The position numbers and the translations under genes are program-made. Below, in pieces: positions 3,844 to 50,126 of a DNA stretch of 53,545 nt (position 1 is its first letter; each line of letters starts with the position of its first letter). Origin of the DNA: Propionibacteriaceae bacterium (GTDB lineage Bacteria > Actinomycetota > Actinomycetes > Propionibacteriales > Propionibacteriaceae). The stretch spans positions 1 to 53,545 of the forward strand of contig JAJTCL010000002.1 in the NCBI GenBank assembly GCA_021323255.1, read 5' to 3'. Under the pieces are notes generated by a model. It saw only the letters and a list, made by a program, of their open reading frames with translations. It did not search any database and was not told where the DNA came from.

Positions 3844-5127
3844 ATGTCTCCCGGCCGCGATGAGGATCTCGACTGGTTGTACGGGCGCGATCCCCAGCAA
3901 GCGGAGCCCGAACGGACACGTGTGATGCCGGACCCATACGGGACCGCCGCACCAGACTCACAGCAGAGGCGGGCGCCGTACCCGCGCACCCCTACTCACC
4001 AGACCCCACAGCCTCGCCCAGGCATCCCACCGTCCGGCCCGCCACGCGGACCTGGTGGGACGGCAGGCGGACCAAGGGCACCGCGGCCCGCCAGACCCGC
4101 AAAGCAACGGCGTCCGGTTCGGCGGTTCTTCCGGGTGCTGCTGATCTTGCTGCTGTTGTTCATCCTGTGGCTGATCGCCGTACCGGCGTACGCGTGGACC
4201 CAGATAGCCCGCGTTGACGCAGCACCATCCGGCCAGCGGCCTGCTGATCAACCAGGCAAGACCTTCCTGTTGGTGGGCTCAGACTCCCGAGCTGGGCTCA
4301 GCAGAGCCGAGCAAAGGCGACTCGGAACGGGTAGTACGGGCGGCCAGCGGACGGACACGATCATGCTGGTCTACGTCCCGCTGACCGGCAAGCCGGCGCT
4401 CATTTCAGTGCCGCGTGACTCTTATGTGGATGTTCCGAGCAATGGCAAGAACAGGATCAACGCCGCTTACGCCTTCGGCGGCCCTGAGCTGCTGGTACAG
4501 ACGGTCGAGCAGAACACCGGTCTTCGCATCGACGGTTATCTGGAGATCGGCTTCGGCGGCTTCGCCAATGTCGTCGATGCACTCGACGGCATCAGGATGT
4601 GCTTACCGAATGCGATCAAGGATCGCGACAGCCATATCGACCTGCCCAAGGGTTGCCAGACACTGAGTGGCACCAAAGCTCTCGGCTACGTGCGCATGCG
4701 CAAGGCCGATCCCCGTGGCGATTTCGGCCGCGTGGAGCGGCAGCGAGAGATGCTCGCTGCCGTGGCCGCGAAGGCAGCGTCCCCGGCCACCGTGCTGAAT
4801 CCGGTCCGTTATTGGAACTTTTGCATGGCTACTGCTGATGCGATCAAGCTCGGTCGCGACACCTCACTGCCTGAGACCCTGAGGTTGGCTTATGCCATGA
4901 AACGGATTTCTGGTGGCAACGGCCTCACGTTGACGGTACCGGTATCGAGCTCGGGCGCATCCACGTCAGTCGGCTCGGCGGTCTTGTGGGACGCCGCCAA
5001 GTCCAAGGCGATGTTCTCCGACATCAAGCGTGGAAGCATCTGCACGGGCCGGACCGTTGACACTGGAGGTCAACTCAATGAACAGCCCATCCCATGCGGC
5101 CTCTCGAGCCGCGGCTCGAACTCATGA
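3844..5127 (+). CDS. LCP family protein (C-terminal tail after ~5030 looks atypical)
   Basis: FLLVGSDSR, RTDTIML, SVPRD, INAAY, ALGYVRMR..GDFGRVERQR. Confidence 0.9.
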   Translation: MSPGRDEDLDWLYGRDPQQAEPERTRVMPDPYGTAAPDSQQRRAPYPRTPTHQTPQPRPGIPPSGPPRGPGGTAGGPRAPRPARPAKQRRPVRRFFRVLLILLLLFILWLIAVPAYAWTQIARVDAAPSGQRPADQPGKTFLLVGSDSRAGLSRAEQRRLGTGSTGGQRTDTIMLVYVPLTGKPALISVPRDSYVDVPSNGKNRINAAYAFGGPELLVQTVEQNTGLRIDGYLEIGFGGFANVVDALDGIRMCLPNAIKDRDSHIDLPKGCQTLSGTKALGYVRMRKADPRGDFGRVERQREMLAAVAAKAASPATVLNPVRYWNFCMATADAIKLGRDTSLPETLRLAYAMKRISGGNGLTLTVPVSSSGASTSVGSAVLWDAAKSKAMFSDIKRGSICTGRTVDTGGQLNEQPIPCGLSSRGSNS

Positions 5128-39800: not shown

Positions 39801-40355
39801 TTACTCCAAGGCGAGGGAAGCCGCGGCGTCTTGCTGGCCGGTGACGTCCCAGAGATGGTGGATCACATCGTGCAAGAAGTACTGGATGAAGGTCAGGACC
39901 GTGAATTCCGCACCGTCGGACCTGAACCCACGTCGTGAGTATTGATCGGGCGTGAGCGAGCGGATCCGGGCAACGAAAACTTGCGCAGCAGCCTCGAGCT
40001 CGTCGGCAACCACCTCGGGGTCCTGCTCGCTGTACCGTTCCGCGATGGCTGTCTCATCCTGGTCCCAGCTGGCGAAAGTCGGTGTGTCCTCGCTGAGCAG
40101 CTGAGCAAGGCGGGCATCGAAAAGCCGGTAGACGTCGCGAACATGGGCGCCGTATTCCAGAGGCGACCAGACGTCGGGCTGCGGGCGCGCTGACACCGCC
40201 GGGCTCGAGCGCAGGATCTGAACCCACTCTTCGGCGGCGACGAAGGCACGCTCGGCAAATTGTGCGGGATCGATCTCGCCAGCCGACAGACCACATTGGT
40301 CACACCGTCGCCTCAGCGTCCAGGTCCAGTCTTTGGTGTCCGGTGGAGGTTGCAC
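39801..40355 (-). CDS. DinB superfamily protein
   Basis: PDTKDWTW..C..CG, WSPLEYGAHVRD, HDVIHHLWD. Confidence 0.85.
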   Translation of the reverse strand: MQPPPDTKDWTWTLRRRCDQCGLSAGEIDPAQFAERAFVAAEEWVQILRSSPAVSARPQPDVWSPLEYGAHVRDVYRLFDARLAQLLSEDTPTFASWDQDETAIAERYSEQDPEVVADELEAAAQVFVARIRSLTPDQYSRRGFRSDGAEFTVLTFIQYFLHDVIHHLWDVTGQQDAAASLALE

Positions 40356-40411: not shown

Positions 40412-40499
40412 ATGTCCACAAGCCAGCGGCGTCGACTGTGGAGAAGTTGATCATTTCGGTGCATGACTAAGGCCATCTTGTGGACAGCCCGGTGGACAA
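40412..40499. promoter_or_regulatory. Cluster of four DnaA-box-like 9-mers
   Basis: ATGTCCACA(40412), TGTGGAGAA(40437), TGTGGACAG(40479), GGTGGACAA(40491). Each is 8/9 to TTGTCCACA or its complement. Confidence 0.6.
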
Positions 40500-40569
40500 C
40501 AAAATTGCTGGATTTTCTTTTCTGGATTGGGTTGCGGGGCGCCTGACAAGGCTGTAGAAATCTCTTACG

Positions 40570-40752
40570 CACTTCCGCAAGGAAGGGCGCGACTGGGACA
40601 GAACCGAGAATTCGCACGGTGAGGCAACTCGCCGCAGCGGCCGGTGACGGGTTGCTGGGATTCGTCGGGTCGCCTGGTCAGCTGGAGACGTCGCTTAACT
40701 CCGGCTAACTAGTGGGCCCCTGCAACTCATACTTGGAGGGGCCCACGCTATT
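40570..40752 (+). ncRNA. Unidentified structured ncRNA candidate
   Basis: Two GCAA-capped hairpins, a GUGA-capped hairpin, an enclosing stem, a further hairpin and a terminal GC stem. Promoter-like TTGCGG-N17-TAGAAA upstream. Confidence 0.65.
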
Positions 40753-40755
40753 TAT
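40712..40755 (+). terminator. Terminator-like hairpin ending the ncRNA candidate
   Basis: GTGGGCCCCT...AGGGGCCCAC followed by GCTATTTAT. Confidence 0.6.
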
Positions 40756-40763
40756 CTGAGCCC

Positions 40764-40951
40764 GCTGCTCGCGCTCTGTTCGATGGCTCGCTCCGCTCGC
40801 GGCGGATCGCGCCGCGAAGTCGCCTACTTCGTCGTCGCTCCCCGACGAAAGGCGTGTCGGCTCGTTCCTCCTCAGCACGGCGACGCGCGATCCGATTTGG
40901 GTCCTCGCACCTCCTCACCACCGAAGAGCCGCGATTCTCGACGCTCGCAGC
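40764..40951. repeat. Decayed family A element (copy 4) containing a full B-type insert (40777-40894)
   Basis: Outer ends GCTGCTCGCGC / GCGATTCTCGACGCTCGCAGC. Insert colinear with 49898-50016. Confidence 0.8.
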
Positions 40952-42976: not shown

Positions 42977-43774
42977 ATGGCTGAACTCTTGGTGTTGCTG
43001 ATTGTGGTGGCACTGATCGTGGGCGGTGTCGCCCTCTACCGCAGGTATGCGATCCAGCAGCGCCAGGCTGCGGAGCAAGCGGCACTGGAAACCCAACTCT
43101 CCACATCCAAGCGGGCAGCTGACGAAGATGTCACCAAGTTTGGCGAGGAACTGCAGCGGCTGGACTCCGATGTCGCCGGGCATCCACTCGACGAGGCGAT
43201 GCAACAGGACTACCAGCGCGCTTTGGACGCTTACGACAACGCGAAGATGTCGCTGGACGCGGTTACCAGACCAGAGGAAATCCGGCACGTCACCGAGATC
43301 TTGGAGGATGGGCGATACGCCGTCGCATGTGTCAAGGCACGAGTCGCGGGTGAGCCGCTGCCTGCCAAACGTCCACCCTGTTTCTTCAATCCCGCGCACG
43401 GCCCCTCTTCCCAAGACGTCACCTGGGCACCTCCCGGAGGCGTCGCGCGCTCGGTGCCAGCGTGTCCTGCTGACGCGGAACGGGTACTTGCCGGAGCCGA
43501 TCCCTACATTCGCACTGTCCAGGTCGGCGCCCAGCGCGTTCCTTACTGGGAAGGCGGTCCCGCGTACGCGCCGTGGGCGCAGGGTTACTACAGCCGCTGG
43601 AGCGGCAGTGACATGCTCTCCGGCATGTTGATCGGCGGCCTGCTGTTCGGTGGCATGGGCAACATGTTCTCCGGCGTCGGCGAGGGCATGGGTGACCTCA
43701 TGGGTGGGATCGGCGAGGGCGCGAGCGATATCGGAGGCGGTATCGGCGACATGTTCGGAGACATGTTCGAGTAG
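42977..43774 (+). CDS. Conserved actinobacterial membrane-anchored hypothetical protein
   Basis: N-terminal TM, coiled region, PCFFNPAHGPS..VPACPADA, Gly-rich tail. Confidence 0.75.
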   Translation: MAELLVLLIVVALIVGGVALYRRYAIQQRQAAEQAALETQLSTSKRAADEDVTKFGEELQRLDSDVAGHPLDEAMQQDYQRALDAYDNAKMSLDAVTRPEEIRHVTEILEDGRYAVACVKARVAGEPLPAKRPPCFFNPAHGPSSQDVTWAPPGGVARSVPACPADAERVLAGADPYIRTVQVGAQRVPYWEGGPAYAPWAQGYYSRWSGSDMLSGMLIGGLLFGGMGNMFSGVGEGMGDLMGGIGEGASDIGGGIGDMFGDMFE

Positions 43775-49712: not shown

Positions 49713-50126
49713 GCGGCGAGCGTCGGCAATCGCGCGCCGCCGCACGGAGCCAGGCTGGCGCGCAGCTGCCCTGGACGATCGAGCGAGCAGACATGCTTTT
49801 CGTCCGCGAGCGGGTGGGGAAGGCAGCGGCCAACAAGCGCCAGCCTCAGCGAGCGGAGCGAGCAATGCCGTGAGGAGCGAGCGGAGGCGTTTTTCTCTGT
49901 TTGATTGCTCGCTGCCGCTCGCTGCGGATCGCGCCAGGAAGCCGCCTACTTTGTCGTCGCTCACAGACGAAGAGCATGTCGGCTCGCTCCTCCGCAGCAC
50001 GGCGGCGCGCGATCCGGTGCGAGCGACGACGACGGCGGCGGATTCTCGATGTTCGCGCCGCCGATCTCCCAACAAATTGCGCGAGCGCGGAGCGAGCAAT
50101 CAAACACAGCGCGATGCGCGAGCAGC
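49711..50126. mobile_element. Family A element, copy 5 (inverted), interrupted by three B-type inserts
   Basis: Host pieces 49711-49749, 49872-49899, 50018-50045, 50108-50126 rejoin into the reverse complement of 2127-2243. Mobility is inferred. Confidence 0.8.

What the first reader, a model, noticed from the sequence alone, without database searches (positions are those of the whole stretch)
40570..40755. Unannotated ~180-nt multi-stem ncRNA candidate with GNRA loops and its own terminator
Seen (manual fold): CUUCC-GCAA-GGAAG (40572-85). An enclosing helix GACUGGG/CCUGGUC, CCGA/UCGG, GAAUUC/GGAUUC surrounds CGGUGAG-GCAA-CUCGCCG (40617-34) and CAGCGGCC..GUGA..GGUUGCUG (40635-57). Then AGCUGGAG/CUCCGGCU (40680-706) with an 11-nt loop, and a terminal GUGGGCCCCU/AGGGGCCCAC stem. 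The G-U pairs and GNRA loops work on the + strand only, which favours an RNA. It ends ~330 nt before bccA, so it looks like a stand-alone transcript. I do not recognise it as SRP, RNase P, tmRNA, 6C, Ms1 or a riboswitch.
Basis: partly seen in the sequence, partly recalled or inferred. Interest (0 to 1): 0.75.

Follow-up and report, generated by a model that had tools for sequence, protein, structure and literature searches.

The report
Abundant actinomycete RNA with anticodon-like loop
This is a stand-alone, folded non-coding RNA gene, shared by many soil actinomycetes and matching no catalogued RNA family, that turns up in soil RNA libraries, is likely very abundant, is likely controlled by the replication-start protein DnaA, and likely works as a decoy by showing a tRNA-like loop to a still unknown protein.

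Summary
The ~190-nt RNA (40567-~40755, +) folds as described (z -4.1), has no Rfam match, and its helices covary across 30 relatives. The link to bccA is incidental: neighbours change freely. New features: (1) a loop-loop pseudoknot paired in 30 of 30 relatives; (2) a 3' hairpin with a near-invariant loop CUCAUAC, equal to the host's CAU-tRNA anticodon loop except A38>C; (3) a promoter whose -10 box lacks the usual -7 T in 184 of 184 pattern-matched copies, with DnaA-box-like sites upstream in 155 of 184; (4) a family found in 54 of 151 sampled Actinomycetes genomes, 1-4 copies each, about 90-440 nt, where distant members keep only promoter, a GNRA-rich body and the 3' hairpin; not found in the Streptomyces-like and Mycobacterium-like genomes sampled; (5) contigs in six soil/rhizosphere RNA libraries cover it at summed depths of thousands to a million, with none on the promoter. 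It is not Ms1, raiA, 6S, CoRP or a riboswitch by the tests run. Mechanism is inferred: most likely a stable protein decoy presenting an anticodon-like loop.

The parts
40412..40499 (.). Four DnaA-box-like 9-mers (40412-20, 40437-45, 40479-87, 40491-99), each one mismatch from the recalled actinomycete consensus
   Evidence: only cluster of 3 or more within 130 nt in the 3.37-Mb assembly; enriched upstream of family promoters
40532..40560 (+). Predicted promoter: -35 TTGCGG (40532-37), 17-nt spacer, -10 TAGAAA (40555-60) lacking the -7 T
   Evidence: conserved in alignment; family tallies
40567..40755 (+). The ncRNA (predicted start A40567/C40568; predicted end about 8 nt after the terminal stem)
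   Evidence: RNA-library contigs from 40568
40568..40589 (+). P1 5' hairpin with GCAA loop
40591..40679 (+). P2-P4 irregular rod ending in a three-way junction with P5 (40617-34, GCAA loop) and P6 (40635-57)
40644..40694 (+). Loop-loop pseudoknot: GUGACG (40644-49, P6 loop) with CGUCGC (40689-94, P7 loop; P7 = 40680-706)
   Evidence: 6 pairs, 100% paired in 30 of 30 BLAST-found relatives, 2 pairs with two-sided changes
40712..40746 (+). P8 terminal hairpin with the near-invariant 7-nt loop CUCAUAC (40726-32) closed by A-U; anticodon-arm-like top; likely also the terminator
39801..40355 (-). Divergent DinB-family gene; neighbour conserved only within the genus (22 of 30 loci), not part of the system

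Best explanation
It is a stand-alone non-coding RNA gene whose transcript is likely stable and very abundant and likely acts in trans as a protein decoy or scaffold, showing the anticodon-like loop of its 3' hairpin to a conserved protein that normally reads tRNA loops, while its promoter is likely tuned by DnaA and CarD. Shown: fold, covariation, pseudoknot, family, independence from neighbours, promoter motif, box enrichment, presence in RNA libraries. Inferred: high abundance, DnaA/CarD control, and that the loop is the working part. The partner (an anticodon nuclease, TilS, t6A synthase, MetRS or a ribosome-linked factor) is untested.
For: The loop is the one element kept across bodies of about 90-440 nt that share little else: exact CUCAUAC in 169 of 173 promoter-linked copies, and in all 30 BLAST-found rows, which were not selected for it, while the stem beside it covaries. 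G-U outnumbers A-C 53 to 2 in that stem, so it pairs as + strand RNA. The loop pairs with its own body no better than with shuffled bodies, so it faces a trans partner. It equals the host CAU-tRNA loop at 6 of 7 bases, with the A-U closing pair of the third CAU tRNA (156 of 166); several lineage variants also copy host U36-A37 anticodon loops (CUCGUAC and CUCGUAA vs tRNA-Thr(CGU)). Tandem paralogs with own promoters and a ~75-nt mini-copy fit a titrating RNA. Neighbours vary. DnaA-like boxes: 155 of 184 upstream vs 9 of 184 downstream, 6 of 139 far upstream, 1 of 18 tRNA-gene upstreams; other box pairs in this genome lie at dnaB, the dnaA 3' region and ssd. -7 is never T in 184 copies; such promoters are CarD-activated in another phylum (PMC7703639, abstract); a CarD-size gene is present. 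RNA-library contigs cover the gene but not the promoter in six studies.
Against: No partner is identified and no neighbour co-travels. Some true members have loops that break the tRNA pattern (CCCUUAC, CUCUUGG, CUCAUGC, UGCCUAG), and C38 differs from every host CAU tRNA seen. Loop counts are inflated by search patterns that demanded the loop and by kinship. One run shows a joint at 40720, i.e. molecules ending before the loop. Contig depth sums relatives and cannot rank genes or give strand (tool warning). DnaA consensus and dnaA/dnaB labels are my recall from translations, not family scans.
Confidence: 0.4

Rival explanations
1. An RNA-polymerase-binding RNA of a new type, working like Ms1 or CoRP to store or tune polymerase in slow growth.
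For: Abundant, structured, stand-alone, poorly conserved body, like CoRP; PMC11077062 (passages) predicts further unknown RNAP-binding RNAs in actinobacteria.
Against: The genome has a separate intergenic region with Ms1 synteny (oxidoreductase to ssd/CpaE), and PMC9130861 (passages, supplement rows) lists Ms1 candidates in Microlunatus, Nocardioides and Kribbella; that group proposes one such RNA per species. No 6S-like rod with central bubble.
Confidence: 0.2
2. The hairpin is a processing signal: a nuclease cuts its 5' arm near 40720, leaving a stable ~153-nt RNA (perhaps circular) and releasing a ~35-nt anticodon-arm mimic.
For: Run X3 has two contigs joining 40720 to 40568 without microhomology (depth 4535). 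A cut there leaves exactly a 5-pair stem plus 7-nt loop, and the U at that boundary is conserved.
Against: The joint is in 1 of 6 RNA runs and may be a library ligation product. RtcB ligase does not track the RNA (absent from this assembly and 0 of 3 in a family with the RNA in 3 of 3; 12 of 12 in a family with it in 2 of 12). A functional body would be expected to be more conserved than it is.
Confidence: 0.17
3. A base-pairing sRNA whose C-rich loop pairs with AUGAG or Shine-Dalgarno-like sites of mRNAs.
For: The loop is complementary to GUAUGAG, which includes a start codon; variants stay complementary to purine-rich sites; C-rich terminator loops act so in other sRNAs (recalled).
Against: GTATGAG is not unusual in the genome (164 seen, 137 expected) and sits at only 7 candidate starts of unrelated genes; a complete same-genus genome has one GTATGAGT, so rRNA is no perfect target; 5-7 bp from a closed loop is weak. 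Conservation of target sites was not tested.
Confidence: 0.15
4. A cis-acting leader or riboswitch for the downstream gene, or a selfish mobile repeat.
For: pxpA-like genes follow closely on the same strand in 9 of 20 downstream ORFs scanned from close relatives; the gene moves between loci and duplicates.
Against: Downstream genes differ in identity and orientation across taxa; single full copy per genome here; no transposase link; not found in phage or plasmid collections.
Confidence: 0.05

Closest known systems
Ms1 RNA (RF02566) / scr3559
   Same: Actinobacterial, stand-alone, structured, abundant
   Different: No model match; different synteny; a separate Ms1-synteny region exists in this genome; multi-branched fold with pseudoknot and fixed terminal loop
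raiA motif RNA (RF03072)
   Same: About 200 nt, pseudoknotted, abundant, present in Nocardioides, function unknown (PMC12968392, listing only)
   Different: No match here; raiA sits at separate loci in 2 of 5 genomes tested that carry this RNA
CoRP RNA and scr0792
   Same: Abundant intergenic actinobacterial RNAs outside Rfam; CoRP is cleaved (PMC11077062, passages)
tRNA(CAU) anticodon arm and tRNA-mimic RNAs
   Same: 7-nt loop identical at 6 of 7 bases, A-U closing pair
   Different: No cloverleaf, no acceptor stem or CCA, not called by ARAGORN or Rfam; 14-16 bp stem
6S RNA; 6C RNA
   Same: Abundant trans-acting RNAs
   Different: No Rfam match; no rod with central bubble; no twin C-rich loops

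Membership tests
Any Rfam 15 family | Match above gathering score | tested here: not met
   Searches (window; 20 homolog loci; 12 divergent loci, E<=0.5): no hit over the RNA
Ms1 | RF02566 match | tested here: not met
   the model does hit 3 of 3 genomes of another family but is known to be narrow
Ms1 | Synteny with HAD hydrolase / oxidoreductase / CpaE | tested here: not met
   neighbours; such synteny lies elsewhere, contig C396
Ms1 / 6S / CoRP | Binds RNA polymerase | not testable with these tools
   needs RIP-seq or gradient
raiA motif | RF03072 match | tested here: not met
   none in this genome; separate loci in G050 and G064
tRNA | Cloverleaf with acceptor stem | tested here: not met
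tRNA anticodon-arm mimic | 7-nt Y-U-N-N-N-R-N loop matching a host tRNA loop | tested here: met
   broken in a few lineages
tRNA anticodon-arm mimic | Bound or cut by a tRNA-reading protein | not testable with these tools
   no partner known
Riboswitch / cis leader | Fixed class of downstream gene on the same strand | tested here: not met
Base-pairing sRNA | Conserved complementary mRNA sites | tested here: inconclusive
   no enrichment; cross-genome conservation of sites not tested
Mobile-element RNA (TnpB/IscB guide, retron, type III antitoxin) | Linked nuclease, transposase, reverse transcriptase or toxin gene | tested here: not met
   89 flanking ORFs, no recurring such gene (one integrase, one PIN domain)

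The most novel reading that the evidence does not exclude
A widespread, uncatalogued class of actinomycete RNA that is among the most plentiful non-ribosomal RNAs of soil, is switched by the replication initiator DnaA, and delivers a tRNA anticodon-arm mimic (on a variable pseudoknotted scaffold, or cut out of it) to jam a tRNA-reading enzyme or the translation machinery, so linking replication state to translation in dormant soil bacteria.
Probability: 0.25. Interest if true: 0.95.

Novelty: categorically new. Interest (0 to 1): 0.84.

Why it matters
Even with no mechanism, this is a new, broadly spread structured RNA family with signs of very high abundance in soil communities, apparently missed because it was not found in the Streptomyces-like and Mycobacterium-like genomes sampled. 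It offers a concrete candidate for the predicted further abundant regulatory RNAs of actinobacteria, a rare ncRNA under likely DnaA control, and a natural anticodon-loop mimic. Cultured carriers (Kribbella, Nocardioides, Terrabacter, Knoellia) make it directly testable. I put the chance that it is already described in material I could not see at about 15%.

Tried and rejected
No RNA-library contig covers 40730-40759 in the three RNA runs laid finely, while run X19 (kind not on record) spans the stretch; I do not use this as evidence of the 3' end, because strong hairpins are lost in library making and low tips are pruned from contigs, and loose adapter ends stand at 40705. The phylum-wide pattern search was mis-specified (it missed the window's own copy) and is uninformative. 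Viral pattern hits were not the hairpin; phage and plasmid BLAST gave nothing. Weak hairpin-model hits (E above about 1e-5) included ordinary terminators, so one search's 73 of 151 is an upper figure. An antisense ORF from the loop's AUG has no conserved length. Cis pairing of the loop: rejected. RtcB as partner: no co-occurrence. Box-plus-promoter pattern in 5 genomes lacking the RNA: none. Earlier findings of this scan: none returned. Ten paper searches found no description; supplements of PMC5737381 and PMC11109978 (motif catalogues) could not be read and may bear on novelty.

Full report
Observation. The stretch lies between a divergent DinB-family gene and bccA. Rfam gives nothing at gathering score over the window and only two chance hits at E<=10, neither on the RNA. 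It is single copy in the assembly; the 40770-40895 stretch behind it is a separate dispersed repeat.

Conservation and structure. BLAST found it in 29 of 61 genomes (own included; 22 of 36 in the genus). On the 30-row alignment, 33 of 63 pairs show two-sided changes (shuffled 18.7 +/- 2.5; slid controls 15-24) and 87% of cells pair. An 80-row model-fitted alignment gives two-sided changes at 54 of 57 pairs (leans to the model, includes 5 weak hits).

Family. The full model finds 54 of 151 class genomes; the hairpin model 67 of 121 in the order, by family 5/35, 35/35, 21/35, 3/3, 2/12, and 0 of 150 in a phylum draw of which 139 were other classes. It was not found in the sampled families that carry 6-7 SsgA genes or Rfam-grade Ms1, i.e. 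likely Streptomyces and Mycobacterium relatives. Distant members keep the promoter, a GC-rich multi-helix body with many GNRA loops (294 of 970 predicted loops) and the 3' hairpin; promoter-to-hairpin lengths run from 86 to 442 nt; up to 3-4 copies stand in tandem, each with a promoter. This genome has a second, ~75-nt copy on contig C364.

Independence. DinB lies upstream in 22 of 30 close loci, bccA downstream in 5 of 30, a pxpA-like gene in 9 of 20 other downstream ORFs scanned; across distant taxa 89 flanking ORFs show no common family or orientation. So it is not a leader of bccA.

The terminal loop. CUCAUAC is invariant in all 30 BLAST-found rows, in 166 of 168 strong hairpins within two mismatches and 169 of 173 promoter-linked copies; the last two counts are partly selected for it. 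The closing pair is A-U in 156 of 166. G-U beats A-C 53 to 2. The loop does not pair in cis. Host CAU tRNAs have CUCAUAA; the third CAU tRNA (by elimination Ile2, my inference) also closes with A-U. Lineage variants: CUCGUAC, CUCGUAA, CUCCUAC (still anticodon-loop-like) and CCCUUAC, CUCUUGG, CUCAUGC, UGCCUAG (less so or not). A short pyrimidine tail follows, so the hairpin likely also terminates, though the scan finds no U-tract.

Promoter. Among 184 distinct copies matching a loose -35/17-18/-10 pattern, the last base of the -10 hexamer is A (118) or C (66), never T. PMC7703639 (abstract) reports that 90-99% of non-alphaproteobacterial promoters have that T and that CarD activates those lacking it; PMC10232725 (abstract) ties CarD action in mycobacteria to open-complex stability; a CarD-size gene is present. 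DnaA-box-like 9-mers (consensus recalled) lie within 130 nt upstream in 155 of 184 (mean 1.94) against 9 of 184, 6 of 139 and 1 of 18 in controls. The window's four are the only cluster of three or more in the assembly; other pairs lie before dnaB, behind dnaA and before ssd (dnaA and dnaB recognised by eye from translations). Kin are not independent, but the signal spans many families.

Expression. 18 soil or rhizosphere RNA runs hold the sequence; I laid 6 of them, from 6 studies. All cover about 40575-40705; in the four laid widely the summed contig depth in 40613-40713 is 6,619 to 923,991, with 0 on the promoter region and at most 254 on flanking genes. The tool warns that such depth sums relatives, gives no strand and cannot rank genes; I take it as evidence of transcription and only as a strong hint of great abundance. 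Run X3 has two contigs joining 40720 back to 40568, which fits the predicted 5' end and points to molecules ending in the 5' arm of the hairpin; it is 1 run of 6 and may be a library product.

Comparison. Not Ms1 (a separate Ms1-synteny region on C396; synteny terms from PMC9130861, passages and supplement rows), not raiA, no Rfam hit in 32 homolog loci. CoRP and scr0792 (PMC11077062, passages) differ in size, taxon and context. Ten paper searches and term searches in PMC11109978 and PMC7807495 main texts found no description; two large motif supplements were unreadable.

Mechanism and verdict. Shown: a conserved, transcribed, stand-alone structured RNA family outside Rfam. Inferred: a stable decoy or scaffold whose anticodon-like loop binds a conserved protein, under DnaA/CarD-tuned transcription (0.4); rivals are RNAP binding (0.2), processing to a shorter or circular form with release of an anticodon-arm mimic (0.17), mRNA pairing (0.15), cis or selfish element (0.05). 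Interest 0.84.

Noticed in passing
window 40770-40895 and 49895-50016: A dispersed ~120-nt repeat with about 60 long copies in the assembly (76 BLAST hits, 62 of at least 80 nt), palindromic, followed here by CCUCCUC-loop hairpins that weakly resemble ar14. REP/MITE-like; low RNA-library cover.
   Followed up: partly
L190 (G000:C364:4035-4066 and about 4245-4316): A mini-paralog of the RNA with a different -10 box and no DnaA-like boxes, plus an orphan CUCAUAC hairpin just upstream of a divergent serine-dehydratase-like gene.
   Followed up: partly
L197 (G000:C396:1786-2330): Intergenic region with Ms1 synteny (oxidoreductase to ssd/CpaE) that Rfam's Ms1 model misses; two DnaA-box-like sites lie before ssd.
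   Followed up: partly
L066:1580-2472: One family member lies 124 nt upstream of the methionyl-tRNA synthetase gene on the same strand; a single case among the loci scanned.
   Followed up: no
L206, L214, L215, L218, L257, L258, L260, L261, L263, L264: Orphan hairpins with the family stem and loop (or lineage variant loop) at gene ends without body or promoter: decayed copies or mRNA sites for the same partner.
   Followed up: partly
L038:899-1354: A tyrosine integrase fragment lies 139 nt behind one member; the RNA's 3' end may serve as an integration site.
   Followed up: no
window 42977-43774: 265-aa predicted membrane-anchored protein after bccA with no Pfam family.
   Followed up: no
L190:707-763 (-): msiK RNA motif above gathering score on the same contig as the mini-paralog.
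   Followed up: no
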